Of a stretch of 64,000 nt of DNA, positions 13,969-51,695 are shown one piece after another. Below the pieces are notes generated by a model. The model was not told the origin of the DNA, searched no databases, and saw only the letters and a list, made by a program, of their open reading frames with translations. The stretch spans positions 10,877 to 74,876 of the forward strand of contig QQNF01000004.1 of assembly GCA_003402705.1 (NCBI GenBank), in the 5' to 3' direction. Position numbers and translations under genes: made by a program. Source of the stretch: Verrucomicrobiota bacterium (GTDB lineage: Bacteria > Verrucomicrobiota > Verrucomicrobiia > Verrucomicrobiales > V1-33). The first letter of the stretch is position 1; each line of letters starts with the position of its first letter.

Positions 13969-16900
13969 TCAGTTCCCTGAGTTCGAATAGGTGCGGAGGA
14001 AGAGTTGGATGTCATTCACGCTCTTGGCGAAGTTGTCCATGCCCAGCTGCTCGTCCTTGAGCAGCGTGATGGCAGGAATAACAATCTTCCACTGGCTGTT
14101 CCAGACGCTGCGGCCGATCAGGCGGGCGTTGGTGAAGGCGATCGGCAGCTCGCCCTCCAGATAGGGGTCGGGAGCATTCGCCACCATCCGGAAGGCCTGG
14201 TGCTTGCGGATCACCCACGGCCGTTCCGCGAAGGTGTCATTCGGGCCGAAGAACTGCGTGGTGTTGAAATCACTGGCTCCCAGGTTGTAGGGCAGCGGCA
14301 GGGCCTGATCGACCACCTGCCAGCTGCGGATCTCCCCGGTGTCGCCCAGCGGCGTGCGCATGAAATCATTGCCGCAGGGAATCAGATAGGCATACGGCGT
14401 CGCACTGAGGGCTCCGTCCGCGGTGGATTCGCCATCGACCATTCCGATATAGCCGGGCAGGGCCAGTCCGACGGCAGCAATCTTGGTGGCGAAGTTGCTC
14501 TGGCTGTAGGCATGGTCTCCGGCGGCGAGATCAAGGCCGAAGAAATTCTTGCCGTCCTCCACGGTGGTGCTGAAGGGAATGATGAAGCCAGGAATCGCGC
14601 TGCCATCGGCTTTCTTCAGTCCCCGGCAATAGGCGGCCACCTGCGGGTCGGACAGGACGTTAGGCACGATGTGCTGCTCCAGCGTCTGCTGCCAGTCCTT
14701 GTCCTCAGCGTCCGTCTCGCCTTCAACATGGGGCAGGATACGGAACAATTCCTGACGCAGCGAGAACAGCGTATTGTAGTGATCCGGATTGTTGATCCCG
14801 AGACGCCCTTCGGCGACCGCAAAGTCCGCGTTGAGCTGGGCCATGGTTCCGGCCAGCCCGGCATCGCCGAGGGTGCTGGTGGTGGCCCGCGGCACGCCGC
14901 CAGTGAGATCCCCGAGCGAGCGGGAGGCGACGAGGCGGTTGATCACCGCTTGTCCCTGCGGGGTGCCGAGCAGCCCGGTTTCATAGTCGTAGCTCTTGGC
15001 CGCCAGGTAGCTGTAGCGCCCCGCGACGTCGAACAAGGTGCGGTATTCCACTAACGCCTCGTTGCGGAAGGTGCGGAAGGTCAGGTCCTTGGTGCGATAG
15101 CCATTGATCACCGCGGCGGCGCGCCGACGCATGGACTCCCGCCGCAGCCGGATCGTCTCCCCGGCCACCCGCAGGTTCTGGATTTTTTGCGTGGCGGTAG
15201 CGTAGGCTGTGGCCAGCTCGGTGAAGCGGGTATGCATCCCGATCAACTCGCGGTAGGTCTGCTCGAACTCATACGCAGCCTGCAGTTCGTCCTGGGTGAA
15301 GCCGAGGCTCATCAGGGTGTTTTCCTTGATGAGTTCCAAGCCTCCGCCCAAAGTCACTTGGAGCAGGCGTGCGGAAGTGTTCGCAGACAATGCGGCACCC
15401 AGCAAAGTTGCTTTGCCGGCTCCCGCCGCGATACGAATCCCGCCCCGGCCAACGGAGGTCACGTCGTTGGCCAAACCAACCGATCTGGGTAGCAATTCCG
15501 CAGCGTCATCGCCAATATTAGAGGTGATGTCCGCAGCCACTGCGGCAGCCTCGCCTAAAGATTCCAGAACCGCCACAGCTGTATTATTTACCACGAGAGC
15601 GGTTCCAATGACCGCCGTCGTCGTTTGCTGGCCTACATGCATAGTGACCAAGCCCTCGAACACCTCCTCTTCCCGATCGAACCGCGCCTTCAAGTTGTCC
15701 AAGTCGTCTTTCGCCGCCAGCAGGGCGAGTTGGGCGAGTTGTGCTTCAACCAGGGCGTCCTGCAGGGCACCGGTGTAGGGCCGCTTGCCTAGCGCGGTGT
15801 CCTTGCCGACCACATCGGCAAACTGCGCCCACTGGTTCGGCGTCACCTGGAAGGTTCTTGTCACGGTATCAAGGATTCCGTCACCGTTCTTATCTCCCCC
15901 TTCATAACTCGTGAAGATGTCGTCAATGGCCCCGCCCGTAAACGTCTGATACTGCACCGCTTGGCGGTAGGTCACGGTGACCGGTTTGGCGGTGTCGATC
16001 CAGTTGAGCGGGCGGTCGATGATGTACCAGCGGTCAAAGTCCGGATCCGCATAACCCTGCGGATAAATTTTCCCTGGCCCGATATCACCGGCGTAGGGGC
16101 TGCCGAAGATGTCCAGAAGCTCCTGCTTATAGGCGGATTCCTCACTCCGAATGGCGCTCTGCTCGTCGCTGACCTGATTCTCCTGGTTCCGCAGCAGACG
16201 GGTCATGGTGGCGGCCTGGTTGAACGAGCCGGCGGCATTGTTCAGCGCTTGCAAGGCCCGCACCGAGACCTGCTCGTAGTGGCTCTTGCCGACCACCGTC
16301 GGATCCGCCAGTTCCTGGCCGAGCGAGTTGTTCCAATACGGGTCGAGGTCGAAGGCGATCGCCCCCGGGGCGAGGCCCAGCGGATTGAGGCGGTCATTGG
16401 CGGAGTCCATGGTCGTCTGGTAGCTGAGCGCCAGGGTGGGCAGCTCGTTGAGTTCCGGCACCGTGGTGCGGTCCACAATCTGCACGCCGCTGTGATTGGG
16501 ATTGTTATCCACATCCGGCAGCATCGCATTGCCAGCGATCCAGTGGAAAAAGGCACCCTGGGTCGAGCGGCTGGCGGTTTCATCGAGGCCCTGATGACGC
16601 ACCACCGTGGTGCGGGAATTGACCTTGCCATCGCGGAACTGCGACCAACCGGCATTCGGATCGTCCTTGTAGTTCTGGCGATGGACCAGACTGAGCACCT
16701 GCTGGGCGGTGCGGCCGACGTTGGCGGCGGCAGCGGCGAATTTCCGCTCATCCTTGTAGTCCACCGACACCGGCACGCCGAGCACCGTCACCGTCTCCGC
16801 GCTGGGAGTCCAGGTGAAATAGGGGTGGGTGAGCAGCTTGTAGTAACCCTTGAGCGCGGTTAGGTAGTGGCCGTAGGCATCGCCATGGCCTTGCGGGAAC

Positions 16901-19900
16901 ATCCGGTAGGCATCGGCGGCGTCCACGATGCCATTGGCAGTGCTCGAGCCGGACTTTTCAGTGATGTTGTAGTTCACGGCGTAGAGCGCCTCCCCGCTGT
17001 TGATGCCGCGGGTGTAGTTCCACCACAGGCGATTGTAAGCGGGGGCCCCCGCCGTGCCCTGGGCATTGAAGTCGTCCCGGCCGCGCAGCAGGGCGAGTTC
17101 CTCATCGAGCGAGTTGGCCACCTGGCCCTCGAAGGCGAAGCGGCTGGTGTTGACCTCGGTCACGCTGTCCTTGTCGTCGACAGAGATCGTTGGATTGGCA
17201 GCATCCGCGTAGGCCTCGTTGCCGAGAATGGTGTAAAGGTCGTTGAGATACCCGGCGGCGAGGATCAGCGCGTTGTTGGTACTCGCGGTGCCGATGCCGG
17301 AGTTGATCGTGAAGCCCTTGCCTCGGTTGAGCACGGTCTCGTAAATCTCGATCAGCCCGGCGTCGTTGATGTTCTCCATGTTGAGGGCAATGTCGCCCTC
17401 CCAGCGGGTGCCGGCCTGGGTCAGCATCGAGACATCCGTGTTGATTGAGTTGCTGTAGAGGTCCGTCATCCGCTGGTTGAACGGCGTGATCTTGGCAAGC
17501 ACGCGCTTGATCCAGCCTTCAACGGGGGACGAGCGAGTCCAGTTCGACCACGCCCCTGCGGGCGTGGTGCCCTGGGCCTTGAGCCGATAGCTCACGGTGA
17601 AATTGACATCTCCCATCAGCACCGCGGGATTGCTGATGACCGCGCTCGGGTCCGCCCCCACCAGGATCGAACCGCCGAGGCTGTAGACCTCAGGATTACC
17701 GGGGGGTTTGGGATCAATCCAGTCGGAGATCGGGGTGCTGTTGTCCAGCGGCAGAATCGGTGCCTGGCCGCTGCTGTCATTGAAGCCATAGCGGTAGCGG
17801 AACTCGAAGTTCTCCGGCTGGCCACCGTAGTCACCGCTGTGGCGCACAGTGACCTTTTCATCGAGCGGGTTGGACGAGAGCAGCACCTTGAGGTCGCCAG
17901 GGTAAAGGTCAGGCACCACCTTGATGATCTGCATTTGCACCGGATCGCCCGGATCCGTGAAGGCCTTGCCGTTGCCGAACACCAGCGTCACATAACCGGT
18001 GCCGGAACCGGTGGAACTCAGCGCATACCCAGCCACCGCCGTGTCCGGATCGGTGATGTCGGAGCGCCCCTTCACCGGGATCGACTGATTCAGCGCGGCG
18101 GCCGCCACATAGGTTCCCGGCACCGTGGTGCTTTCACGGAAAGTCTCCAAGGTGGTGGCAAGCCCGGCGATGGCGGCAACCCAGGCACTCTTGTCGGTTG
18201 AGGCATTCGGGAGGAGTTTCTCGAGATCCTCCACATCCTGATTGCTGAGCTGGTTGAGATTGAAATAATCAAGGGTCGCTTTTTCCTCTACAAACTGGCC
18301 GATGAGCACCAGTTCTTTCTGGACGGCATCGTAGTAGAAGCGGTTCTGCAGGTTGGGCGGGAGGCCCTGGAAGTAGGTTTTGCCAGCGTAGTCGCTCGTC
18401 CGGATCCCCGGGGGCAGCTTGGGCATGGCCGACTTTTTCGCACGGATCGGATCGTGCAAGGCCACCGACGAGGCATTCAACTTCATCGCCATCGATTGCT
18501 GATAAACGATCTGGGCGCTGGTTTGGCCGAGCACTTGAGGCAGGCCATCCATCTGTTTGCCCAGGGTTTGCGCCATCTTCAGCTCCGGAACCACTGTTTG
18601 CTGCGCCACGGGCAGGGACGGATCATCCGGCCACTTGGGCTGATAGGTTAGGGTGACGGAAGAATTCCTGCCATCGAGGACGTCCGCGATGAAGGGCTGG
18701 ATGCTGCCCGCCGCGGGCTGCGCGTTCAGGGCAAAGAATGGAAAATCGAAGTCCGCCCGGTTAGTGTAATAAAACTTCATGCCGAAGGACACCGGTGCAT
18801 CGATTCTCACTTCTGGCGCGGCAGCGTAGCCACTGCCCCTGGTGGTGACCGTGATCGAAGTCACCCCAAAACCGTCGATGTTTCCAGTGGCCGTGGGTGC
18901 GGTGCCGGCGACCAACTCGGTGCCGCCAGAGAAAGTCAGGGTCGGTACCGTGGTGTATCCCGTGCCGTTGTTGGTCATCTGAATACCGGTGACGAAACCA
19001 CTGGTGAGCACCGCCGTGGCTGCGGCACCCGTGCCGCCGCCGCCGCTGATGGCGACAGTGGGTGCCACGGAATAAGTCTTCGTGCCGGAATTGATGGTAA
19101 AGCTGGCGGAGGTGAGTCCGCCAAGGACGGCGGTAGCCGTGGCACGCGTTCCGCCGACGGGCGCAGCCACGGTCACGACGGGCGGGGTCGTATAGCCACT
19201 GCCGTTGGCGGTGACCGCGATCGAAGTCACACAAAAATTGTTATTGTTGCCACTGGCGGTGGGTGCGGTGCCGGCGGCCAGTTGGGTACCGAGGGTGAAG
19301 GCAAGGGACGGTGTCGTGGTATAGCCCGTGCCGTTGTTGACCATCTGAATGCCGGTGACGAGACCGCCGCTGAGAACCGCCGTGGCGGTGGCACCCGTGC
19401 CGCCGCCACCGCTGATCGTGACGGTAGGAGCCACGGAATAAGTTCTGGTGCCAGAATTGATGGTAAAGCTGGCGGAGGTGAGTCCGTCCGCTGTGGCCGC
19501 TGCGGCGGCGCTGGTTTTGGCGTGGGCGCCGCGGAACAAATGATGCGTTCCCTTGCGATCCACGAAAGTGAATTTGTCATAGGCCGTGATGAATGCCGCG
19601 GGAGCTGCGTTGTTTGGGAGCAATGGCAAAGTATCCTTGGCGAGTGGCACTTCTTCATTGCGCACCGACTTGTTAACATCGTCCCGCTTTGGCAGCGGCA
19701 GAAGTGCCAGCGGCATGGGTGGGGTGATCGGCGTGCCGGCGATTTTATTGTAAACCAGCGGATAAGTCTCGGTCGCGCGGACCACCTTGGCCACGCGCAT
19801 CGCCGGACGCTTGTCCGCGGCATCGTTGTATTGCAGCAGGACGAAGGGCTCGGAACTAGTGGCGAGGTTCAGGTCATCGCGCAGAGCAAAGACATTGCCA

Positions 19901-28440: not shown

Positions 28441-29546
28441 GCGGTTCCGGAACAGGGTAGCGAGACCTGCGCTCTGACCACAGTCGCCGTGTAATCCAGC
28501 GTCAGCTCTGCCTGATCCCCATAGACGAGATGCAGGCGTTTCCTGAGATTAGCGATGCCGAGCCCGGTGGACCCCGATCCGTGCGGCTCCACCCAGCGGC
28601 CGGTGTTCTCCACCATCAGAAGCAGTCTCCCCTCCAATAGCCGCGCCTCAATGGCGATGCGCAGCGGAGGAGGGCTGGTCTTCTGGCCGTATTTGAGAGC
28701 GTTTTCCAGCAGCGGCTGGATCAAGGCCGTTGGTACCAGCGCGGCGCAGGCCTCTTCGCTCACCTCAAGGCGGGTCTCCAGCTTTTCTTGAAAGCGGATC
28801 TTCTCCACCAGCAGATAGTCTTCCAGCGCGGCGACTTCCTGGCCGAGCGGGTGTTGAAACTGATCCTCGGACTCCTGGGCCAGCGAGAAGCGCAGGTAGT
28901 CGGCTAAGGACTGGGTCACCTTGGAAACCATGGCCTCATTCTTCCGCACGGCCATGATGGTGGCCAAGGCATTGAAGAGGAAATGGGGATTCACCTGAGA
29001 GCGGAGCAGCCTTAGCTCGGACTGATGGAACTCCCGCTCGATCTCGGCATGGCGCTTGATGGACTTGATGCCAAAATAGAGCAGCATCCAAATCATGAAA
29101 ATGGCCACCCTGATGAAAAATATCGCAATCCTGGTCTGCCGCGGGACACCGGGGAGTCCGAAGGCGAGAACCATGCGGTCGACCCCCATCAATTCCACAT
29201 AGGAGAGCAGCAGCGAGACGAGGAAAGTCAGAGGAACCAAGAGCCAATGCTTCCCGAAGCGGGCCAATGCCCAGGAGCAGCAGGGCCTCAGCGCCAGCGT
29301 GATCAGGAAACCGTTCACGGGACGCATGATTCCATAACAGAGAATGGACGGATCCGTGATCGAACCAGTCACCCAGAACAGCACAGGGACGAGCGTCATC
29401 AGCCCCCAACCGGCGATCTGCAGCGGCCAGAACGAAAAGAACCCCGAAAGCCACGGGCCCCGTCCCAGCACACTGCCCGGCGGGCCCTTAATCCCATCCC
29501 GCGGCCTCGCCCGCCTTAATACGACTTCCTCGAGTGATGTTCGCAT
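28437..29546 (-). CDS. LytS/YehU-type sensor histidine kinase (369 aa)
   Basis: Hydrophobic N-terminal half with several predicted TM helices. His_kinase motif LRSQVNPHFLFNALATI. HATPase region LIQPLLENALKYG...GLGIANLRKRL. The exact start is uncertain. Confidence 0.85.
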   Translation of the reverse strand: MRTSLEEVVLRRARPRDGIKGPPGSVLGRGPWLSGFFSFWPLQIAGWGLMTLVPVLFWVTGSITDPSILCYGIMRPVNGFLITLALRPCCSWALARFGKHWLLVPLTFLVSLLLSYVELMGVDRMVLAFGLPGVPRQTRIAIFFIRVAIFMIWMLLYFGIKSIKRHAEIEREFHQSELRLLRSQVNPHFLFNALATIMAVRKNEAMVSKVTQSLADYLRFSLAQESEDQFQHPLGQEVAALEDYLLVEKIRFQEKLETRLEVSEEACAALVPTALIQPLLENALKYGQKTSPPPLRIAIEARLLEGRLLLMVENTGRWVEPHGSGSTGLGIANLRKRLHLVYGDQAELTLDYTATVVRAQVSLPCSGTA

Positions 29547-29586
29547 GCCTCATGGAATGGTTAAGGCTGCGTCACGACATAGATGG

Positions 29587-29766
29587 TTATTGATTGCCCT
29601 TGGAAAATAGGCCTCTGACCCGCTTCAATGCGCGCAGTTGCTCCTTCAGACGGGCATTTTCCCCCTCAAACGCCTCAACCCTCTCCACCCGCTGCAATAG
29701 CTGCTTCCCCAGCGCCACCAGTTCCTCGACGGAACAGGAGTCCAAATAATTGAAGTCGACAGCCAT
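29587..29766 (-). CDS. Small coiled-coil ORF (59 aa); possible remnant of an IS66-family transposase leucine-zipper N-terminus
   Basis: Below the track cutoff. MAVDFNYLDSCSVEELVALGKQLLQRVERVEAFEGENARLKEQLRALKRVRGLFSKGNQ*. The ...ENARLKEQL...LF..K pattern recalls the IS66 TnpC N-terminal region (memory only). No transposase body follows. Confidence 0.3.
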   Translation of the reverse strand: MAVDFNYLDSCSVEELVALGKQLLQRVERVEAFEGENARLKEQLRALKRVRGLFSKGNQ

Positions 29767-30057
29767 GCGCCCAGAATACTTAAAAATTCCGGAAAATCTT
29801 TCAGCCGCTAATCAATTACCATAGATGCTCTAAATAAACACCTCTTGAAATTACTGCTATAAACCGGCAATCACAGCACACCACTCAGGGCGTCTCCCAT
29901 CTCCCCTCAGCGCCACCCTTAACTCGCATCCGCCTCCCGGCACATGCTTCGAACCCGCCACCGCCCCGCAGGGACGACCGGCCCACCAACCCCTCTCCGC
30001 ACCCGCTCAACCTCCACCGCTGCTAATTTTCACTTCTCACTCCCCACTTTCCCAAAC

Positions 30058-30134
<77 letters not shown>

Positions 30135-30240
30135 ATTCTCCAGCTCCCGATCGGAAGCTCACCATAAAGATGCCGGATTCCCCCGTCGTGTCAAACCGGG
30201 AATGCCTTGATTCAGGTCCCCGCTTGCTTCCCAAAGGCCC

Positions 30241-45058: not shown

Positions 45059-45093
45059 CCCTACCCACTCAGCCAATCCCCACTCTCCCCAAA

Positions 45094-45127
45094 GTGCCCG
45101 GCGACTCACTCGCCGGGCACTTTTTTT
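45094..45127 (+). terminator. Rho-independent terminator of sucD
   Basis: GTGCCCGGCG-actcact-CGCCGGGCAC (perfect 10-bp stem) followed by TTTTTTT. Confidence 0.85.
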
Positions 45128-45154
45128 GCCCCGCCACTCTTCCCGCCACCCCTT

Positions 45155-45645
45155 CCCCAAGAGGCCTGTCCAATTGCACACCAGTGCACACCACACTCCC
45201 CCAAGAGGCCTGTCCAATTGCACACCAGTGTCCCCGCCCCCCAAGAGGCCTGTCTAATTGTTCCCCACGGCAGAGCAGAAGTGCCCTCCCGCCTCTTACC
45301 TCCGCACCAGCACCCCCTCTCACACCCCGCACCTCCCCCCTTCCCCAAGAGGTCTGTCCAGCCCGAAGAGGTCTGTCTAATTGCAGAGAGTGGAACCGGC
45401 GTCCCGCCGCTTACCTCCCAACCAGCACCCCGTCTCCCACGCAGCACTCCCGCCGCACCAACGTCACCCGCATCGCACCCGCCGACTTGTCTCATCTTTG
45501 CGCCATTCACCTCCGACCTGTGTCCCAACGGGACACCTTATCCCAGCCCAGAGCACCGCTCTGGGTACCCCACCGCCCGAGCCCGGCGTTCTGTAGGAAC
45601 GCCGCATACCCTTGCATCCCTTGCCCGAAGAGGTCTGTCCAATTG
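45155..45645. repeat. Cluster of six copies of a ~22-bp motif CCC(C/G)AAGAGG(C/T)CTGTC(C/T)AATTG in a ~650-bp non-coding stretch
   Basis: Copies at 45155-45176, 45199-45220, 45239-45260, 45344-45360 (3'-truncated), 45362-45383 and 45624-45645. Copies 3 and 5 are each followed ~35-40 nt later by a second shared block, cgcc(t/g)cttacctcc(g/c)(c/a)accagcacccc. Confidence 0.85.
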
Positions 45646-45781
45646 CGCTCGCACCTTTTTCCCGCTCTCCGGTCCGGTCAATGGCTCTTTCAACGGCCAT
45701 CACCCCAAAAGCAGAATCCCAGGCAGCCGAGGCTGTGTCGGCGTCTAGAAAAAAAAGGATGCAAGTGAACTCGTGGGCGGA

Positions 45782-46531
45782 TCAGGCGACACTCGCGTGT
45801 TTTTTGCGCACACGCTCCTCTGGAGCCTCCGTCCACATGAAAAGGGCTTTCACACCATCCAGCAGGCCCATCTCTTGATGCTGCTCCTCCTCGATCTCGA
45901 TGGCAGCCTCGTCGAGCTCCCGCTTGTGTTGCCCCTCGTCGATGTCTCCCACGATTGGCGGTGCTGCTGCCGCACCCAAAGCAGTGATCGCCATGGCATC
46001 TGTGGGTACATTTTGCGGAGTGTGTGAAGCCCAGGACTGCAGACGAATGTGCAGCCCCTGAATGCCGGCTTGCACCGCCTTGCGATGGGACTCGATGGTG
46101 AGCACGAGCTTCTTCCAATCGCCCGCTGCTGCTTCATCGACCCCCTGCGCCTGTGCACTCAAACCCCTCAGCGCGATAGCCAGCTTCGCCTCCTCGCGTT
46201 GAAGTTCATCCCACGCCGCCTGCGCCGCCTGGGGTTGGCTCGTCTCCACCGCCTCATGCATTCCCGCCACCAGCCGTTGAATGCGCCGCAAAACGGCCGT
46301 CACATGGTCCCAATGGTGCTGGCAGCCCGTGTCCCCGTCCGCAGGTGATCCACGCACATTCGCCAGTTCATGGGATTCATCCAAAGTAGTGCTCAGTTCC
46401 TCTTCGAACTCGATCCATCGGGCGCAATCGGCACGCAGACCGGCTTCGAGACTGGAAACGATGGGAAAGGAAAGCGTAAGCGGAGTCGTCATGGCACCAC
46501 AAGCATCCCCATCAGCCTCCATTCCGACCAT
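45782..46531 (-). CDS. Hypothetical helical protein (249 aa)
   Basis: Clean ORF with no recognisable motifs. Its codon usage lacks the G/T third-position bias of the other minus-strand genes in the 30-64 kb region. Confidence 0.55.
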   Translation of the reverse strand: MVGMEADGDACGAMTTPLTLSFPIVSSLEAGLRADCARWIEFEEELSTTLDESHELANVRGSPADGDTGCQHHWDHVTAVLRRIQRLVAGMHEAVETSQPQAAQAAWDELQREEAKLAIALRGLSAQAQGVDEAAAGDWKKLVLTIESHRKAVQAGIQGLHIRLQSWASHTPQNVPTDAMAITALGAAAAPPIVGDIDEGQHKRELDEAAIEIEEEQHQEMGLLDGVKALFMWTEAPEERVRKKHASVA

Positions 46532-46554: not shown

Positions 46555-46576
46555 CCCCAAGAGGTCTGTCCAATTG
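46555..46576. repeat. Seventh copy of the AAGAGGTCTGTCCAATTG motif, ~90 bp upstream of the tgt start
   Basis: ccccaagaggtctgtccaattg, followed by ttcc(a)..cacggcag as after copy 3. A degenerate eighth copy (agaggtctgtctc, then ctaattgtcgc twice) lies at 48774-48840. Confidence 0.8.
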
Positions 46577-46668: not shown

Positions 46669-48738
46669 ATGGTTCCCTCCCGCTTGGATTTCCGGCTTGA
46701 AGCAGTGGCGGACGGCTCCCGGGCGCGGGCGGCCGTCTTCCGGACGCTGCACAACGAGGTGCGCACGCCCCTCTTCATGCCCGTGGGCACGCAGGCGACG
46801 GTGAAGGCGCAGCTGCCGGAAGCGCTCGAAGAATCGGGCTCCCAGATCCTCCTTGCCAATACCTATCACCTTCTCCTGCGCCCGGGCCCGGAAGTCTTCG
46901 AGCGCATGGGCGGCATCCACCGTTTCATGAAATGGAACCGTTCCGTCCTCACCGATTCCGGCGGCTTCCAGATCTTCTCCCTGCCTCACTCCCGCTCCAT
47001 GAGCGAGGAAGGCGCCATCTTTCAGAGCTACGTCGATGGCAGAACGATCCTGCTCAGCCCGGAGCGCTCCATCCTAACCCAGCGCAGCATCGGCAGCGAC
47101 ATCATGATGGTGCTCGATCAGTGCATCTCGTCCACAGCCGACCGCCGCAGCGCGCGCGCCGCCCTCGGCATCACTCAGCGCTGGGCGGAGCGCAGTCTGG
47201 CTGCGCGCGGCGACTCGCCCCAATCCCTGTTCGCCATCGTGCAGGGCGCACTCCACCAGGACCTCCGCAAGGAAAGCGCCGAGGGCCTGACTCCCCTTCC
47301 CTTTGACGGTTTTGCAATTGGCGGCCTCGCTGTCGGCGAGGCTAAAGCAGAGCGCGAGGATACCTGCGAATTCACCGCCGCACTCCTTCCCTCGGAAAAA
47401 CCCCGCTATCTCATGGGCGTCGGCACCCCGCTGGATGTGCTGGAAGCAGTGCACCGAGGCGTGGACATGTTCGACTGCATCATTCCCACTCAGGTCGCCA
47501 AACGCGGCACGCTGTTCACATCCCGCGGCATCGTCCAGCTGCGCCGCGGTGTCTATAAATTCCAGGACTCTCCCGCCGACCCGGCCTGCGCCTGCCCGGT
47601 CTGCTCCAAGTACAGCCGCGCCTACCTGCACCATCTCACCAAGACTCAGGAGACTCTCGGCTGGCAGCTGATGGGCCAGCACAATATCTGGTTTTATCAT
47701 CGGATGATGGACGAAATCCGGGCCGCCATTCTGTCTGGCACCTTTCTCGCATACTACCATGCAAGGCGCAGGATCCTCGCTGTGGAAGACATGGATTTCC
47801 CCACCTCCGACGCCGCACGCCCGGCTCCGCCCCGCCCGCTGGTGCTGGGAGAATACGAAGTCCACACCGCTTCAGAAGGGTTTTCCAGCATCCGGAACAC
47901 CACTTCCGGCGAGATCATGCACTCGTGCACTTCTCCCATCATAGAGGCCCAATCGCTTTATGTGGATCAGTCACGGCTCGCCGAACGCGCCCGCCTCGTC
48001 CCCGGCGAATCGCCAGAAACGGCTGCCCCGCTCATCATTTGGGACGTTGGCCTCGGGGCCGCCGCCAACGCCATGGCCGCCATTCTAGCCTACGAGGCCG
48101 CCGCAGATACCGGCCCCGTGCGCGGCTTGCAGATCATCAGTTTCGAAAACGATCTCGATCCCCTCCGCCTCGCCCTGCGACACAAGAAACGGTTCCCCTA
48201 CCTCGAGCACGGCGCTGCCGACGCTCTCGCGATCAGGGGCGCATGGCATTCCCGCCGTTTCCCCCGCCTTTCATGGCACCTTGTCCATGGGGATTTCAAG
48301 GAAACGCTGACGCAGGTCGATGCCCTCCCGGACTTCATCTTCTACGACATGTGGTCCGGCCGCACCCAGAGCGACGCATGGAACATCGCCGCTTTCCAGC
48401 AACTCTTCGACGCCTGCCACGCGAAACCCTGCGCCCTGTTCACCTACACCACTTCCACCGCCGCTCGCGTCGCCATGCTGGCCAGCGGATGGCACCTCGC
48501 CCGGGGCGTCGGCACCGGACCGAAAAGCGAAACCACCATCGCGCTCACCCCCTCCGCCGCAAACGCATCATGGGACCTCCTCGACCAGTCATGGCTGGCT
48601 CGCTGGGAACGTTCCCACGTCCAGTTCCCCGACGATCTGCCTCCAGCCTCGCAGGAAGCCTTCGCCCGCCGCATCAGGGAACACCCGCAGTTCGCCCCCG
48701 ATCCGGTCGCCAATCCACCGGACCGTCAGCCCGCCTGA
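46669..48738 (+). CDS. tgt: Queuine tRNA-ribosyltransferase fused to a C-terminal MnmC-N-terminal-like (Methyltransf_30/DUF752-type) domain (689 aa)
   Basis: Start trimmed to MVPSRLDFRLEAV...RTPLFMPVGT. Tgt motifs LTDSGGFQ, GLAVGE, YLMGVGTP and Zn site CACPVCSKYSRAYLHHL. C-terminal ~290 aa: IWDVGLGAAANAMA...ISFENDLDPL...VHGDF...DFIFYDMWS..QSDAWN...LFTYTTSTAARVAMLASGWHLARGVGTGPKSETT, which parallels the MnmC methyltransferase-domain pattern (from memory). Confidence 0.8.
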   Translation: MVPSRLDFRLEAVADGSRARAAVFRTLHNEVRTPLFMPVGTQATVKAQLPEALEESGSQILLANTYHLLLRPGPEVFERMGGIHRFMKWNRSVLTDSGGFQIFSLPHSRSMSEEGAIFQSYVDGRTILLSPERSILTQRSIGSDIMMVLDQCISSTADRRSARAALGITQRWAERSLAARGDSPQSLFAIVQGALHQDLRKESAEGLTPLPFDGFAIGGLAVGEAKAEREDTCEFTAALLPSEKPRYLMGVGTPLDVLEAVHRGVDMFDCIIPTQVAKRGTLFTSRGIVQLRRGVYKFQDSPADPACACPVCSKYSRAYLHHLTKTQETLGWQLMGQHNIWFYHRMMDEIRAAILSGTFLAYYHARRRILAVEDMDFPTSDAARPAPPRPLVLGEYEVHTASEGFSSIRNTTSGEIMHSCTSPIIEAQSLYVDQSRLAERARLVPGESPETAAPLIIWDVGLGAAANAMAAILAYEAAADTGPVRGLQIISFENDLDPLRLALRHKKRFPYLEHGAADALAIRGAWHSRRFPRLSWHLVHGDFKETLTQVDALPDFIFYDMWSGRTQSDAWNIAAFQQLFDACHAKPCALFTYTTSTAARVAMLASGWHLARGVGTGPKSETTIALTPSAANASWDLLDQSWLARWERSHVQFPDDLPPASQEAFARRIREHPQFAPDPVANPPDRQPA

Positions 48739-48921
48739 ACCCCAGCGATGTGATAGCAGGCAACGCGCTGCATAGAGGTCTGTCTCAGGGGTCAATTCTA
48801 ATTGTCGCGGAGGGAATCCCTAATTGTCGCCGGACAGTCTGTCTCATTTCCCGCCCATCTTCGGCAACGCGCCCCGCTCCAAGCCACCCCCCCCACAACC
48901 AATCCCCAGCAAACGGCTCGC

Positions 48922-50073
48922 TCATTTGCCCTCCATCGGTCTCCCCGAACCCATCGCAATCTCCATCAGCCCACCGTGAATCTCCTGCCACGATCTCGTG
49001 AGATCCAGCGAAAGCGCCCGAATGCGATGGCCGTGAGTCACAAACTCGACCGCAAAGTCCCGGTCGGTGCGCGGGTACAGTAGCACACCCTCCGCGCGTT
49101 CCCACCCCTGCTGGCACGACTGCTGCCGCAGCTAGGTGAACAACTGATAAAAATTCGCCGCCGGAAGCTTCGCCTGACCATATGCCCCGATCTTCAGTGC
49201 CTTCGCATAAAACTTCGTGTCGATGATAATCGCCCGCCCTGGCCCCCGGAGACACACATCCGTCTCCATCCCCGGAACCAACTCCACCGCATCATTATTC
49301 GGATCCTGCATTTGCCATTTCACTCTCGATGCACTCACACACCACTCCGCGGGCAACTCATGCTCATAGAACTTTCTCACGAAGCTCTCGAAAAGCCCCG
49401 GCAGGCCATCCCGAACGAAATCACGGAACCGGCGTGCACCGCCACCCTCATCCGGAAGCCAGTGCTCATGAACAAACTCGCAGATGTGCAGCAGAAACGC
49501 ATAAATCCGATTGTTCCGGTGCAGCTGCACACGCCGGAAATCCTCCGCACGCAGCACCACACGGCGAACCGGTTCAAGCCAGCGGAGCAAATCGTGCAAT
49601 TCCGCCCGCATCCCCGCTTCCAGCTCCTCAGCCGCCCGAAGGCGCTCCAGCGTCGCCTTCAGAATCCGGTTCGGAAGCGTGTCATATTCCAGTTCCTCCC
49701 ACTCACACGCCGCGCAACCCCGCCGAATCAAATCGCGCCGCACCGTCGCAGTCGTGAGCAACTTGCCCCTCACTCCGGGAATCTCCTCCTCTCGCGGAAG
49801 ATAACCCCGATCCAAACCCCGCCTCAGCAGGCGGCGAGTCCCGTTCGCCAGCACCCTCGCAAACAGTCCCGCAAGATCCGTTGAACCCAGCGCATCCACA
49901 TCCGCCAGCGTCTCCGCCTCGGACAGCGCATCCCACGCATAGCACAATAGGTAGTAGATGTTTGCTATCGGAATCGCGCTTCCTCCCGAACCCGCCAAGC
50001 CGGCCCCAGAAGCATGAACGCCCTCCGCTTCCGCAGATGAAGTCGTCTCAAGTTGAGCGGAAGCATTCATCAT
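48922..50073 (-). pseudogene. mcrC: McrC-like restriction subunit interrupted by an in-frame TAG
   Basis: Track ORF 49132..50073 ends ...IIDTKFYAKAL...ANFYQLFT*(TAG, 49132-49134). The same frame continues LRQQSCQQGWERAEGVLLYPRTDRDFAVEFVTHGHRIRALSLDLTRSWQEIHGGLMEIAMGSGRPMEGK* to TGA 48922-48924, keeping G/T-rich third positions. Confidence 0.75.
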
Positions 50074-50083
50074 CCCGACTTGC

Positions 50084-51695
50084 TCAATCCCCCAGCAAAT
50101 CCGCCACCAGCTTTCTCACCCGATCGCCGGAATCAAAATACTCCTCAAGCAGCGGCTGAATTTCTCCGGCTATCACCTCACGATACCACAATTCGTCAGG
50201 TCGATCACCTTCCTGCGGACAAAAGAAACTGTGCCCGACCCGGAATCCCGGCCCCAGGTCCCTCTCCTTCTCGATCACGGCATTCAACTCACCAACATTC
50301 CGGCGAATCCGCGCTATCAGTGCCTCGGACGCGCCACGCTTCTTCATCCATCCCGCAAACTCAGGCGAATCCACCGCCGGCTCCACCGTCACAAACGCAA
50401 AACGCCGCCGCAGCGCATAATCCACCATCGCCAGCGACCGGTCCGCTGTATTCATCGTCCCGATGAAATACAGATTCTTCGGCAGGAAAAACTTCTCCTC
50501 CGGACCCTCGGAATACGTCAGCGGGATCGCATGCTCCGGCCCGCGCTTGTCGGACTCAATCAGCATCAGCAATTCCCCGAAAATCTTCGCAAGATTGCCC
50601 CGGTTGATCTCATCAATAATGAAAAACCAGTCCCGGCTAGGATCGTTCCTCGCCAGCCGCGCAAACTGATGCAGCACCCCATCCCGGCGCTCCAACCCCG
50701 TACGGCTCGGCCTGAACCCCTGCACGAAATCCTCATAACCATAGCTCGGATGAAACTGCACCGTCGCCACCCGCCGCTCATCCCGCTCACCCATCAACGC
50801 AAACGCCAGACGCCGAGCCACAAACGTTTTCCCAACCCCTGGCGGCCCCTGCAGGATCAATGCCTTCTTCCGCCGCAGACGCGCTAGCACCCCATCCAGC
50901 GCCTCCACAGACATGAACAAATCCGATAGCGCATCCGCTCTCGTAAACGGAACCGCTCCAGCCCCCCCCCTCATTCAACCCCGTCGATATCGGATCATCG
51001 CCACCCTCAAGCCCTTCCTCCACCCCGCTCTCGAGATATGCATCCCATGAGAACTGAGGAAAATCACTTCCCGCTTTCGACTCCACCGCATCGAGCCAGG
51101 CAGCGTAGCCCGCCCCCGTCCGGCTCGACAGGACAACTCCACGCTGTCTGAAATATGCCTCCGTGTGCTTGTCACCCGGTAGAAATCCCCTCGGCTCGAC
51201 CCAGAATAAACTCGTCGTCAGCTTCGCAAACCCCATCTGCCGGATCCCCAGCGCCTGATCAAAAAGCCCCCAGTCAAACGACTTCCACGACGCCCCAATC
51301 GCCGCCTTCGCCACACGCCACAGCAACCCGACATCACCCTCTCCCCGGCCCTCTCGATAACCAAAAGACCAGCTGTTCTGCGCGTTCGCCAGCGGAATCC
51401 CGTCGAAATCATCCGGCACTGCCGACGACAGATTCCAAGCCTCCTTGATCTTCGCCAGCATTGCCTGCCGACCACTCACGGAACTCGTCCGGTTGAAACT
51501 GGCAAAGAACGTAAACGGATCAATCTCCTCCAGCGCAATGCGGGTCCCCTCCGCATCCCGGTCATTCAGAAGAATCACCTTCATCCCTTCCGACCTCATC
51601 TCCCTCAACAGCTCCAGCAGTTCTTCCTGACGCGATTCAAACGCCAGCACCTTGCGGGCAATCTCGGAATAGATGGGAATCCACGTGAAGCTCAT
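50084..51695 (-). pseudogene. mcrB: McrB-like AAA+ GTPase restriction subunit split by a frame switch at a G9 (minus) homopolymer
   Basis: The N-terminal domain (MSFTWIPIYSEIARKVL...) is in the frame of track ORF 50787..51755. The AAA+ part (LILQGPPGVGKTF...FFIIDEINRGNLAKIFGELL...FIGTMNTADRSLAMVDYALRRRFAF) is in the frame of 50084..50974. The frames meet at c9 on + (50962-50970). Third-position G/T bias switches frame exactly there. Removing one G fuses them into a ~536-aa protein. Confidence 0.75.

What the first reader, a model, noticed from the sequence alone, without database searches (positions are those of the whole stretch)
45128..45700. Dense array of a 22-bp motif (CCCC/GAAGAGGYCTGTCYAATTG) in a non-coding gap, with further copies at 46555 and 48774
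Six copies lie within ~500 bp directly after the sucD terminator, some as parts of a longer ~60-80-bp unit with a second conserved block (...cttacctcc.accagcacccc). A seventh lies ~90 bp upstream of tgt, and a degenerate eighth between the convergent tgt and mcrC ends. Spacing is irregular and there are no cas genes, so this is not CRISPR. The motif contains the palindrome CAATTG. Candidate roles are operator array, REP/MITE-like element family, or recombination sites.
Basis: seen in the sequence. Interest (0 to 1): 0.55.

Follow-up and report, generated by a model that had tools for sequence, protein, structure and literature searches.

The report
Strand-locked mosaic repeat arrays in Verrucomicrobiaceae
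The 22-bp motif is real and is the conserved punctuation mark of a lineage-specific family of non-coding mosaic repeat arrays, where DNA modules and whole genes are gained, lost and swapped; it is not an operator, a CRISPR array or a palindromic REP element.

Summary
The window holds six perfect copies of AAGAGGYCTGTCYAATTG (0.07 expected by chance), one truncated copy and one degenerate copy, all on the + strand.

The motif (M) is the only conserved part of a dispersed repeat family. I found 313 copies in 54 loci, all from a narrow clade of freshwater Verrucomicrobiaceae, as singletons or same-strand runs of up to 14 with irregular spacing.

- M does not fold.
- M shows no orientation or position preference relative to genes.
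- No transposase or integrase recurs next to it.
- This clade has an extreme GC skew (about 0.35), and M lies on the C-rich strand 269 times against 5.

Related genomes differ at these arrays by gain, loss and replacement of whole M-bounded modules, with breakpoints at M. One 280-bp composite unit lies after sucD here but after tgt in a sister genome. Genes bracketed by M are compositionally young or relocated. The site after tgt is polymorphic within the species.

Best reading: M is a recombination joint of a non-autonomous mosaic element, closest in logic to Neisseria NIME (dRS3/RS) arrays. The recombinase is unknown, and passive slippage remains a serious rival. I rate it a new variant of a known kind, of moderate interest.

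The parts
45091..45123 (+). sucD intrinsic terminator hairpin followed by a T run. This is context only: the array starts 36 nt after it.
   Evidence: I1: 14-nt arms, 100% complementary, 5-nt loop; sequence
45159..45176 (+). M copy 1 (AAGAGGCCTGTCCAATTG), head of a 44-bp unit
   Evidence: 34.6 bits; TRF period 44, 2.5 copies, 45155-45260
45203..45220 (+). M copy 2, head of a 40-bp unit
45243..45260 (+). M copy 3 (TAATTG variant), followed by block B
45272..45339 (+).
   Evidence: D3: 68 nt, 76% to the second copy. Related copies follow M in L007, L018, L022, L035 and L049.
45347..45365 (+). Truncated M plus 7 nt (AAGAGGTCTGTC CAGCCCG). This 19-bp segment is present in 3 of 8 strain-level contigs.
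   Evidence: presence/absence polymorphism in alignment A7
45366..45645 (+). Composite unit: M copy 4 (45366-45383), block B (45387-45454), a degenerate internal M-like stretch (about 45484-45500), triple-hairpin module H3, and M copy 5 (45628-45645)
   Evidence: 87% identical over 301 nt to L022 2157-2454, which lies downstream of tgt in a sister genome. It is absent from that genome's own sucD gap.
45520..45604 (.). H3 module: three perfect hairpins at 45520-45536, 45546-45566 and 45584-45604
   Evidence: DNA fold z = -4.9 on the + strand, -3.3 on the - strand. Copies in L022, L038, L002 and L049. Sub-threshold Rfam hit to Acido-Lenti-1, 24.1 bits against a gathering score of 37.
45782..46531 (-). 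ORF249, a gene of unknown function bracketed by M copies. Interpreted as relocated cargo.
   Evidence: No Pfam or NCBIfam hit. Weak skew and GC3 0.65. Homologues at 55-76% identity sit directly after a MacB-type ABC/FtsX pair in genomes without M.
46559..46576 (+). M copy 6, solo, 93 nt upstream of tgt. L007 and L049 carry M + ~142-200-bp cassette + M at the same point.
48774..48846 (+). Degenerate, split M remnants: AGAGGTCTGTCTCA (48774-48787), CTAATTGTCGC twice (48798-48808 and 48820-48830), GTCTGTCTCA (48837-48846). Junction of a within-species polymorphism.
   Evidence: L110 is 100% identical up to 48787 and then switches to the composite M unit. L022 has a 1045-bp insert at the same point.

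Best explanation
The array at 45.1-45.7 kb and its outliers at 46559 and 48774 are one locus of a lineage-specific family of non-autonomous intergenic mosaic repeats.

**What the family looks like**
- It is defined by an asymmetric, non-folding core of about 21 bp (M): C[C/G]AAGAGG[T/C]CTGTC[C/T]AATTG[C]. The left 12 bp are nearly invariant.
- M punctuates variable spacer modules of 7-300 bp. These fall into several recurrent families, including block B and the triple-hairpin H3 module.

**How it most likely works**
- M acts as a recombination joint. Modules bounded by M, from a few bases up to whole genes, are duplicated, deleted, exchanged and occasionally moved between M sites.
- Intergenic gaps that contain M therefore become hypervariable and accumulate foreign or relocated genes. 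Examples here are ORF249, and the McrBC / composite-unit / small-membrane-ORF alternatives downstream of tgt.

**Shown**
- Family membership and the sharp boundaries of M.
- No relation to the orientation of neighbouring genes.
- Near-absolute placement on the C-rich strand.
- Breakpoints at M.
- Local duplication and slippage.
- Young composition of the genes bracketed by M.

**Inferred**
- Inter-site movement and module replacement are catalysed by a trans-acting site-specific recombinase or transposase that recognises M. It is not encoded next to the arrays.
- The strand lock reflects either a single-strand or replication-coupled step, or a C-rich target preference.
- M arrays have no dedicated role in regulating sucD, tgt or ORF249.
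For: **Family and anatomy**
- 35 of the 52 genome loci with an exact M come from 5 Verrucomicrobi* MAGs. The other 17 are single chance hits. 18 of the 50 metagenome loci belong to the lineage.
- In total there are 313 copies in 54 loci (397.5 kb), in runs of 1-14. Spacing is 19-317 bp with a median of 65 and no mod-3 periodicity.
- One MAG carries at least 69 copies at 13 loci.
- Information content falls from 1.2-2.0 bits inside M to below 0.3 bits within about 3 nt on either side.

**Dynamics**
- The sucD gap has 2, 4 and 5-6 copies in three genomes whose flanking genes are about 95% identical. The indel edges lie on M.
- Upstream of tgt, the window has flank-M-flank where L007 and L049 have flank-M-cassette-M-flank.
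- The composite unit 45366-45645 sits downstream of tgt in C1_MAG_00061.
- Between L010 and L060, and between L051 and L100, internal blocks are replaced while the flanks are 100% identical.
- A 19-bp M-headed indel is polymorphic among 8 contigs with identical SucD.
- Duplicated units within an array are 96-99% identical. Units at different loci are 78-88% identical.

**Constraint on M**
- In collinear orthologous alignments, M columns are 94.8% identical and other array columns 90.0% (p = 2e-5).
- M has more G than C, although it sits on a strand with only about 20% G.

**Strand**
- In 46 loci with |skew| of 0.2 or more, 269 copies lie on the C-rich strand and 5 on the G-rich strand.

**Cargo**
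- Genes with M on both sides have a median aligned skew of 0.08 against 0.37 for other genes (p = 3e-5), and a median GC3 of 0.68 against 0.78.
- At one locus, three genomes have either a single M, or arrays plus ORF146, or arrays plus a different 210-aa ORF flanked directly by M.
- ORF249 has a different, conserved context in relatives that lack M.
- The tgt-downstream site switches content exactly after AGAGGTCTGTCTCA in a conspecific contig.
Against: - No recombinase or transposase was found. Among 150 non-redundant neighbouring proteins, no such family recurs, and the adjacent ORFs give none.
- No M split by an insertion element was seen.
- No orthologous empty site (no M at all) was observed, so first arrival at a site was never caught. 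Every locus was fetched because it contains M, which limits this test.
- Most detectable recent events are local duplications or deletions between direct M copies. Slippage or unequal crossover explains these without any enzyme.
- Within the species the array is 98% identical, and point mutations do hit M copies.
- Some cargo boundaries are not at M. The L106 junction lies inside mcrC, and the left edge of ORF146 lies about 105 bp after an M.
- Gene maps of the fetched loci are my own rough ORF calls.
- Copies and loci are not independent events. There are about 28 independent sites, with 2-3 exceptions to the strand rule.
Confidence: 0.55

Rival explanations
1. Passive repeat DNA. M arrays are leftovers of old duplications that now change only by replication slippage, unequal crossover and RecA-type gene conversion between short direct repeats. 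M stays recognisable because only intact copies keep being amplified (molecular drive). The strand lock arises because exchange between C-rich intergenic tracts keeps C-rich strand aligned with C-rich strand. No dedicated enzyme and no function are involved.
For: - The 19-bp indel between two 12-nt direct repeats.
- Tandem unit duplicates at 96-99% identity, but only 78-88% between loci.
- No cognate enzyme was found.
- Point mutations occur in M within the species.
Against: - The core has sharp boundaries and is shared by unrelated modules at 28 or more sites and across genomes.
- M evolves about half as fast as adjacent array DNA.
- M is G-rich against a strong mutational bias.
- Non-homologous blocks are replaced wholesale between flanks that are 100% identical.
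- A 280-bp unit has relocated between two M sites 3.4 kb apart.
- M is present inside compositionally neutral, recently acquired DNA (L036, L020, L043).
Confidence: 0.22
2. M is the binding site of a chromosome-level, polarity-sensitive factor: a replication-fork barrier, a translocase-guiding signal or a recombination hotspot in the manner of Ter, KOPS or Chi. Under this reading it is kept in one orientation relative to replication by selection, and the arrays are amplified sites.
For: - 269 copies against 5 on one strand of a genome with strand-wide skew that is independent of gene orientation.
- M is asymmetric and does not fold.
- M evolves more slowly than its flanks.
Against: - Copies are clustered in hypervariable arrays rather than spread along the chromosome.
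- Apart from the eight copies at 45.1-48.8 kb, the rest of the 64-kb window has none.
- Copy number at a site ranges from 1 to 14 between close genomes, which is hard to reconcile with a dosage-sensitive chromosomal signal.
- M also occurs, sometimes in the opposite orientation, in low-skew islands.
- Inverted head-to-head pairs exist.
- Whether the C-rich strand is the lagging strand could not be established, because gene-strand bias is absent (45% of coding sequence on the G-rich strand).
Confidence: 0.1
3. M is a cis-regulatory element: an operator array, a promoter or a 5'-UTR motif controlling neighbouring genes such as tgt.
For: Single copies lie 60-270 bp upstream of co-oriented genes at several sites: tgt here, L020, L036, and both directions between the divergent genes of L038 and L046.
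Against: - The downstream gene is co-oriented in 25 runs and opposite in 23. By gap type the runs split into divergent 12, convergent 8 and tandem 22.
- The largest array here lies between two convergent 3' ends.
- Neighbouring genes are functionally unrelated.
- No sigma-70-like site overlaps M.
- The GG-to-GC spacing is one base too long for a sigma-54 site (read from the sequence against the textbook consensus), and the final C is only 66% conserved.
- Copy number upstream of tgt differs between close genomes.
Confidence: 0.05
4. The arrays are transcribed, and M is an RNA motif: a protein or ribosome sponge with a Shine-Dalgarno-like AAGAGG, or a processing site of a repeat-spacer RNA.
For: - M contains AAGAGG.
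- The arrays lie on an unstructured C-rich strand.
- The H3 module has three stable hairpins and a weak Acido-Lenti-1-like hit.
Against: - No Rfam family reaches its gathering score.
- The Acido-Lenti-1 hit scores 24 bits against 37, lies on the opposite strand to M, and is repeated only by the ortholog.
- The long unit has no global structure (z = -0.5 and +0.3).
- The arrays have no consistent relation to transcription units and no promoter-like site.
- Spacer lengths of 7-300 nt, with spacers related to each other, do not fit guide arrays.
Confidence: 0.05

Closest known systems
Neisserial intergenic mosaic elements (NIME: 20-bp dRS3 repeats separating RS elements), as described in PMC1797815
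   Same: - A conserved repeat of about 20 bp punctuates more than one family of variable spacer elements. RS elements are 19-214 bp; the spacing here is 19-317 bp.
- The elements form long intergenic arrays.
- Syntenic arrays differ in repeat number and length between strains.
- Other small repeats are embedded in the arrays.
- The arrays are associated with variable flanking or embedded genes.
- The short repeat was proposed to be a recombinase site.
   Different: - dRS3 is an inverted repeat (ATTCCC-N8-GGGAAT). M is asymmetric and does not fold.
- M arrays are locked to one DNA strand.
- The sequence and the phylum are unrelated.
- For dRS3 a phage-encoded recombinase that integrates into it is known. 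For M, none has been found.
REP / BIME clusters with RAYT transposases (PMC3733652, PMC2817692)
   Same: Short, high-copy, strictly extragenic repeats that cluster. They are sometimes reiterated head-to-tail together with flanking DNA, and are mobilised in trans.
   Different: - REPs are 20-40-nt stem-loops with a GTAG or CGTC tag, usually in alternating orientation.
- M has no stem-loop and no such tag.
- M is almost always in direct orientation.
Integron cassette arrays and CALINs (attC clusters without an integrase); comparison from general knowledge
   Same: - Same-orientation arrays of a recombination site separated by variable cassettes.
- Array content differs between close strains.
- The arrays include toxin-antitoxin and unknown small genes as cargo.
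- The strand of the site matters.
   Different: - attC sites are 55-140-bp imperfect palindromes recognised as folded single strands, and sit at one locus next to intI/attI.
- M is 21 bp and unstructured, and occurs at 13 or more loci per genome with no integrase nearby.
- Most cassettes here are tiny and non-coding.
- Cargo genes are in either orientation.
CRISPR arrays
   Same: Direct repeats separated by variable spacers. Arrays differ between strains.
   Different: - The repeat is shorter (18-21 bp).
- Spacing is irregular (19-317 bp).
- Spacers are related to each other and share the host's strand composition.
- There are dozens of loci.
- No cas genes are present among the neighbours.

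Membership tests
CRISPR array | Repeats of about 23-50 bp at regular spacing, with unique spacers of uniform length | tested here: not met
   - The core is 18-21 bp.
- Start-to-start spacing is 44, 40, 104, 19, 262 and 931 bp in the window, and 19-317 bp family-wide.
- Spacers recur within and between arrays.
CRISPR array | Adjacent cas genes | tested here: not met
   The flanking ORFs are sucD, an unknown 249-aa ORF, tgt-mnmC2 and McrBC. No cas family appears among the 25 families listed for 150 neighbour proteins (142 matched in all).
REP / BIME | Imperfect palindrome forming a stem-loop | tested here: not met
   DNA folds of M with 15-nt flanks on both strands give z-scores from -1.45 to +1.25. 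The PWM shows no complementary conserved columns.
REP / BIME | Conserved GTAG or CGTC tetranucleotide tag at one end; alternating orientation in clusters | tested here: not met
   There is no such tag in or next to M. Runs are same-strand, with a few head-to-head pairs only in L038, L046, L036 and L043.
REP / BIME | Cognate RAYT (Y1 transposase) gene in the genome | not testable with these tools
   Only 8-kb fragments of MAGs were available. No such family is among the 25 listed for the 150 neighbour proteins.
MITE | Terminal inverted repeats and target-site duplication delimiting a unit of 50-500 bp | tested here: not met
   - Units in the window have M at one end only.
- No inverted M occurs anywhere in the 64-kb window.
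- Inverted head-to-head M pairs 19-65 bp apart exist at a minority of sites.
- A genuine, unrelated MITE with 21-bp terminal inverted repeats was seen in L036 for comparison.
Integron attC / cassette array | attC: a 55-140-bp imperfect palindrome with R''/L''...L'/R' boxes (RYYYAAC ... GTTRRRY) | tested here: not met
   M is 21 bp and does not fold. No paired inverse core site is seen in the PWM flanks.
Integron attC / cassette array | intI integrase with attI and Pc at the head of a single array | tested here: not met
   Arrays occur at 13 or more loci per genome. Neighbours show no recurrent integrase.
NIME (dRS3/RS) arrays | A conserved repeat of about 20 bp separating variable spacer elements of many families, in intergenic arrays that differ between strains | tested here: met
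   definition taken from PMC1797815
NIME (dRS3/RS) arrays | The short repeat is the dRS3 inverted repeat ATTCCC-N8-GGGAAT of Neisseria | tested here: not met
   M is AAGAGGYCTGTCYAATTG. It is asymmetric and restricted to Verrucomicrobiaceae. The array therefore works like a NIME but is not a member.
NIME (dRS3/RS) arrays | The short repeat is the integration target of a phage or IS-encoded recombinase | not testable with these tools
   No split M or inserted element was seen in 397 kb. The viral-contig scan gave one chance hit.
Operator / promoter array | Fixed orientation and distance relative to regulated genes; functionally coherent regulon | tested here: not met
   The downstream gene is co-oriented in 25 runs and opposite in 23, and all intergenic classes are used. 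Neighbour functions are heterogeneous. There is no sigma-70-like site at M.
Simple tandem repeat / VNTR (MIRU-like) | Head-to-tail copies with a constant period | tested here: inconclusive
   TRF finds only the first 2.5 units (period 44, 45155-45260). The rest of the array and the family as a whole have irregular spacing. Local tandem duplication does contribute.
Transposon ends with multiple transposase-binding sites (Tn7 / Mu type) | A few direct sites at each end, in inverted orientation at the other end, with transposition genes between them | tested here: not met
   Up to 14 direct copies occur with no inverted partner array and no transposition genes between or beside the arrays.

The most novel reading that the evidence does not exclude
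M is the crossover site of an unrecognised, multi-locus cassette-exchange system.

- An asymmetric 21-bp site is recognised in one strand orientation by a trans-acting recombinase. Candidates to test are an IS110-type, bridge-RNA-guided enzyme (M has an invariant CT centre flanked by 7 + 4 conserved bases) or a single-strand HUH enzyme coupled to replication.
- The system would capture, duplicate and swap both non-coding modules and genes at dozens of intergenic sites. Examples of such genes are the McrBC defence module, toxin-antitoxin pairs and ORF249.
- Functionally it would be a dispersed integron, built on a site unrelated to attC.

The IS110 and HUH suggestions rest on recalled properties of those families. 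They were not tested here.
Probability: 0.2. Interest if true: 0.8.

Novelty: new variant of a known kind. Interest (0 to 1): 0.5.

Why it matters
- **A second mosaic-array system.** If M is a recombination joint, this clade of freshwater Verrucomicrobiaceae carries a second, independently evolved example of the NIME-type mosaic array. The function of NIME arrays is still unresolved after 25 years. This example has two features that make the question tractable. The site is asymmetric, so the direction of any reaction can be read. The host's extreme strand composition acts as a clock that dates inserted DNA.
- **Practical consequences.** The arrays explain why assemblies of these genomes break: many arrays sit at contig ends. 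They also mark the places where strain-specific genes, including defence genes, should be sought.
- **If the passive explanation is right.** The family is then an ordinary, lineage-specific junk repeat.

Tried and rejected
- **Sigma-54 or sigma-70 promoter.** The GG-to-GC spacing is one base too long, the final C is only 66% conserved, the scan found no sigma-70-like site at M, and there is no bias relative to gene orientation.
- **Small ORFs started by AAGAGG-N9-TTG.** Spacing shows no mod-3 pattern (85/73/73). Variants end in TTA, TCA or CTG. Pfam finds nothing for the ORFs that overlap the array.
- **REP-like hairpin.** The folds are not significant.
- **Structured RNA.** No Rfam family reaches its gathering score. 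A weak Acido-Lenti-1 hit falls on part of H3 only. The long unit has no global structure.
- **Cognate enzyme next to the arrays.** Pfam on adjacent ORFs and on 150 non-redundant neighbour proteins found no recurrent transposase or integrase.
- **An insertion element splitting M.** None was found in 397 kb.
- **Phage or plasmid origin.** One chance hit in viral contigs. No blastn match in phages or plasmids.
- **Literature search for the motif string.** Only unrelated primer sequences were returned.
- **Leading versus lagging strand from gene-strand bias.** No bias exists (45% of coding sequence on the G-rich strand), so which strand is which remains unsettled.
- **Orthologous empty sites.** None was found, but the test is weak because every locus was fetched for containing M.
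- **Tn3-like ends and a 5-bp TCTCA duplication at the 1045-bp indel.** The ends are not inverted repeats.
Full report
**1. Observation**

The motif is real. AAGAGGYCTGTCYAATTG occurs six times exactly, at 45159, 45203, 45243, 45366, 45628 and 46559, all on the + strand. Shuffles give 0.07 matches. A search with the 5' part adds a truncated copy at 45347 and a degenerate copy near 48773.

A weight matrix built from 307 copies found elsewhere scores the six full copies at 34-39 bits and the two partial ones at 13.1 and 11.1 bits. It finds nothing else on either strand of the 64-kb window.

The array begins 36 nt after the sucD terminator hairpin at 45091-45123. It lies between the convergent 3' ends of sucD and an unknown 249-codon ORF at 45782-46531 on the minus strand. 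The copy at 46559 ends 93 nt before the ATG of a tgt-mnmC2 fusion gene. The degenerate copy lies between tgt and mcrC.

**2. Anatomy of the motif**

The alignment used 210 copies with up to 3 mismatches from 279 kb of related DNA. It shows a core C[C/G]AAGAGG[T/C]CTGTC[C/T]AATTG[C] with very sharp edges. Information content is 1.2-2.0 bits inside and falls below 0.3 bits within about three bases on either side.

The left half, AAGAGGYCTGTC, is the most invariant part. The right half drifts by lineage: CAATTG, TCATTG, or CATCTG in L012. CAATTG is TAATTG in 38% of copies, so the palindrome is incidental. M does not form a hairpin on either strand, with z-scores between -1.45 and +1.25.

**3. Distribution**

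An exact-pattern scan of one genome per species returned 52 loci. Of these, 35 come from five Verrucomicrobi* MAGs (C1_MAG_00061, D1_MAG_00053, D1_MAG_00066, RE-27jun17-61 and an East River bin) and often carry several copies. The other 17 are single chance hits in unrelated taxa.

A metagenome scan added 18 loci of the same lineage from freshwater samples. The scan of viral contigs gave one chance hit. Plasmid and phage collections gave nothing.

In total I counted 313 copies in 54 lineage loci (397.5 kb). They occur as 30 singletons and as same-strand runs of up to 14. Start-to-start spacing is 19-317 bp with a median of 65 and no three-base periodicity. One MAG carries at least 69 copies at 13 loci. 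Many arrays sit at contig ends, as expected for repeats that break assemblies.

The six copies that fall deep inside a long GC3-supported ORF call lie in over-extended 5' ends or in a doubtful antisense ORF call, not in convincing coding sequence.

**4. Not a gene-linked signal**

Using my own rough ORF maps, the gene downstream of a run is co-oriented in 25 cases and opposite in 23. Runs lie in divergent (12), convergent (8) and tandem (22) gaps. Among 150 non-redundant neighbouring proteins, ordinary housekeeping families dominate the listed Pfam matches and none is a transposase or integrase. No sigma-70-like site coincides with M. This argues against operators, promoters, 5' UTR elements and terminators.

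**5. Strand lock**

This lineage has an extraordinary strand asymmetry. GC skew is 0.25-0.49 in absolute value over most loci and over window 29.5-64 kb, for genes on either strand.

In the 46 loci with |skew| of 0.2 or more (arrays masked), 269 M copies lie on the C-rich strand and 5 on the G-rich strand. Allowing for orthology, this is about 28 independent sites against 2-3 exceptions. The exceptions lie in compositionally neutral DNA: L020, L036 and L043, and L023 and L058.

The C-richness of the array spacers is therefore simply the genome's asymmetry. M itself has more G than C and so stands against that bias. I could not establish which strand is leading, because coding sequence is split 45:55 between the strands.

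**6. Dynamics**

*The sucD gap.* The window, L007 and L049 are about 95% identical in sucD and ORF249. The gap between those genes carries five full copies plus one truncated copy in the window, two copies in L007 and four in L049. The edges of every large indel lie on an M copy.

*Upstream of tgt.* The window has flank-M-flank, where the other two genomes have flank-M-cassette-M-flank.

*A unit in two places.* The composite unit 45366-45645 consists of M, block B, the triple-hairpin module H3 and a second M. It is 87% identical over 301 nt to L022 2157-2454. That position is downstream of tgt in C1_MAG_00061, orthologous to window 48787. The same genome's own sucD gap lacks the unit.

*Block replacement.* In two pairs of contigs whose flanks are 100% identical, L010 with L060 and L051 with L100, non-homologous internal blocks are replaced. 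The switch points lie at M.

*Copy-number range at one locus.* One orthologous site has 1, 2-3, 6 or 8 copies in different genomes.

*Within the species.* Eight contigs encoding an identical SucD have arrays that are 98% identical. Their only indel is the 19-bp AAGAGGTCTGTCCAGCCCG, present in 3 of the 8. Point mutations also hit M copies.

*Age of duplicates.* Duplicated units within an array reach 96-99% identity, while units at different loci are 78-88% identical. Local duplication and deletion therefore dominates recent change, and movement between sites is rarer or older.

*Constraint on M.* In collinear orthologous alignments, M columns are 94.8% identical and other array columns 90.0% (p = 2e-5). 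There is an ascertainment caveat, because M was defined by similarity to the consensus.

**7. Cargo**

*Composition.* Genes with M on both sides are compositionally atypical. Their median skew, aligned to the locus background, is 0.08 against 0.37 (p = 3e-5; 5 genes against 71). Their median GC3 is 0.68 against 0.78.

*One locus, three states.* Between the same two conserved genes:
- L061 has a single M.
- L014 and L033 have arrays plus a 146-aa ORF that ends 11 bp before an M.
- L025 has arrays plus a different 210-aa ORF flanked directly by M on both sides.

*ORF249 in the window.* ORF249 is bracketed by M at 45628 and 46559 and has GC3 0.65 and weak skew. It belongs to a small family found only in Verrucomicrobiota (25 clusters, no Pfam domain). 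In every more distant relative examined (55-76% identity) with upstream sequence (four of the five genomes), the homologue sits directly after a MacB-type ABC/FtsX gene pair. The fifth, the 55% relative, follows an OsmC-family gene instead. Those genomes have neither M nor the extreme skew. ORF249 is thus a relocated gene.

*Downstream of tgt.* This site is polymorphic among contigs with identical SucD:
- Most contigs carry McrBC, as in the window.
- L110 is 100% identical up to 48787 (AGAGGTCTGTCTCA) and then switches to the composite M unit seen in L022.
- L106 replaces mcrCB from window 49170 onwards with a low-GC small membrane ORF followed by three M copies.
- L022 carries a 1045-bp insert at the same M-like half-site, flanked by a 5-bp TCTCA repeat.

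**8. Other modules and RNA**

H3 (45520-45604) folds into three perfect hairpins, with z = -4.9. It recurs in L022, L038, L002 and L049 with changes in the loops.

Part of H3, on the strand opposite M, gives a sub-threshold Rfam match to Acido-Lenti-1: 24.1 bits against a gathering score of 37. Only the ortholog repeats this match. I regard it as weak.

The long unit has no global RNA structure. No Rfam family other than tRNA reaches its gathering score in the window.

**9. Mechanism**

The best-supported reading is that M is a recombination joint of a non-autonomous mosaic repeat family.

The following are shown:
- Breakpoints lie at M.
- Modules are gained, lost and replaced.
- Slippage occurs between M copies.
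- One unit sits at different M sites in sister genomes.
- Young or relocated genes lie between M copies.
- Content is polymorphic within the species at an M half-site.

It is inferred that a trans-acting enzyme recognises M. Three observations support this: the sharply bounded conserved core shared by unrelated modules, block replacement between identical flanks, and the presence of M in recently acquired DNA.

The strand lock can be explained in two ways. One is a single-strand or replication-coupled step. The other is a preference for C-rich targets: position -2 is C in 80% of copies, and CCCC is about 30-fold commoner than GGGG on that strand. I could not separate these two.

The main rival is purely passive slippage and gene conversion with molecular drive (confidence 0.22). 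Lesser rivals are a polar chromosomal binding site (0.10), a regulatory element (0.05) and an RNA motif (0.05).

**10. Comparison with known systems**

The closest analogue is the neisserial intergenic mosaic element. There, 20-bp dRS3 repeats separate RS elements of 19-214 bp from many families. The arrays differ between strains, and the short repeat is proposed to be a recombinase site; a phage recombinase is known to integrate into it (PMC1797815).

M arrays share that architecture and behaviour but are not members of the family. M is asymmetric, unrelated in sequence, found in a different phylum and locked to one strand.

They also fail the defining tests for REP/BIME (no stem-loop, no tag), MITEs (no terminal inverted repeats), integron attC arrays (no palindromic site, no integrase, many loci) and CRISPR (irregular spacing, related spacers, no cas genes).

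**11. Verdict**

The finding is a real feature and a new variant of a known kind. Interest is moderate at 0.5. The family itself is an ordinary class of object. Three things are unusual and testable: the 269:5 strand lock in a genome with extreme skew, the asymmetric site, and the link to variable cargo.

The caveats are these. The evidence comes from MAG and metagenome fragments that were fetched because they contain M. The gene maps of those fragments are my own rough calls. No enzyme has been identified.

Noticed in passing
window 1-64000 (switch at about 28500-30200); also loci L002-L103: Extreme strand asymmetry.
- GC skew is -0.25 to -0.49 across 29.5-64 kb for genes on either strand. 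It is about +0.05 across 0-29.5 kb.
- The switch lies next to a tRNA gene (30061-30134, minus strand).
- The same skew of about 0.35 in absolute value is seen in all lineage loci.
- It is absent from relatives that lack the motif (L112-L117).
- There is no gene-strand bias relative to the skew.
   Followed up: partly
window 1-29546: The neutral-skew block looks like a compositional island.
- It holds two giant ORFs (467-8932 and 13972-22707; about 2800-2900 aa). The first has no Pfam hit; the second was not scanned.
- It also holds a protein with a Peptidase_S74 (tail-fibre chaperone) domain, a LytTR response regulator and a histidine kinase.
- There are internal long repeats: 1-300 against 26880-27179 at 90%, and 3145-3444 against 16704-17003 at 72%.
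   Followed up: partly
window 46670-48738: tgt is fused in one 689-aa ORF to a C-terminal MnmC2-like SAM-dependent methyltransferase domain (Methyltransf_30 / NF033855). This joins two tRNA wobble-base modification activities in one protein. The fusion is conserved in the related contigs.
   Followed up: no
window 48922-50974; L106 7206-8093; L110 6296-6382; L022 2131-3174: The McrBC restriction module is strain-variable among contigs with identical SucD. L106 replaces it with a low-GC small membrane ORF plus three motif copies. L110 and L022 carry a composite repeat unit, and in L022 also a MotA/ExbB-like gene fragment, at the tgt-proximal junction.
   Followed up: partly
window 45782-46531 (minus strand); L112-L117: The ORF249 family (25 clusters, Verrucomicrobiota only, acidic and helical, no Pfam or NCBIfam domain) is the gene immediately downstream of a MacB-type ABC transporter pair in more distant relatives. 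This suggests a function linked to that exporter.
   Followed up: partly
window 45521-45565 (minus strand): A sub-threshold Rfam match to Acido-Lenti-1 RNA (RF01687; 24.1 bits against a gathering score of 37; E = 0.0014-0.0077) covers two of the three hairpins of the H3 module. Only the orthologous copy in L049 repeats it.
   Followed up: yes
L036 reverse strand, about 3120-2930 and 1190-1085: An unrelated, classical MITE of about 190 bp with 21-bp terminal inverted repeats (CCGTCTTACAGATGGTGTCTT ... AAGACACCATCTGTAAGACGG). One full and one partial copy lie between genes of a neutral-skew island.
   Followed up: no
L014 3450-5050; L025 1-700; L029; L024; L044: - A second short recurring motif, CCCCATTCCCCTGCCA, occurs inside many spacer modules.
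- A recurring small hairpin with a CCC-AAC-GGG centre has stems that differ between copies (GTGTCCCAACGGGACAC, CAATCCCAACGGGATTG).
   Followed up: no
window 23293-23382: Four to five tandem 18-bp units (CCTGC.G.GATG.TGGTT) lie inside or next to a small ORF (23110-23496) in the neutral-skew block.
   Followed up: no
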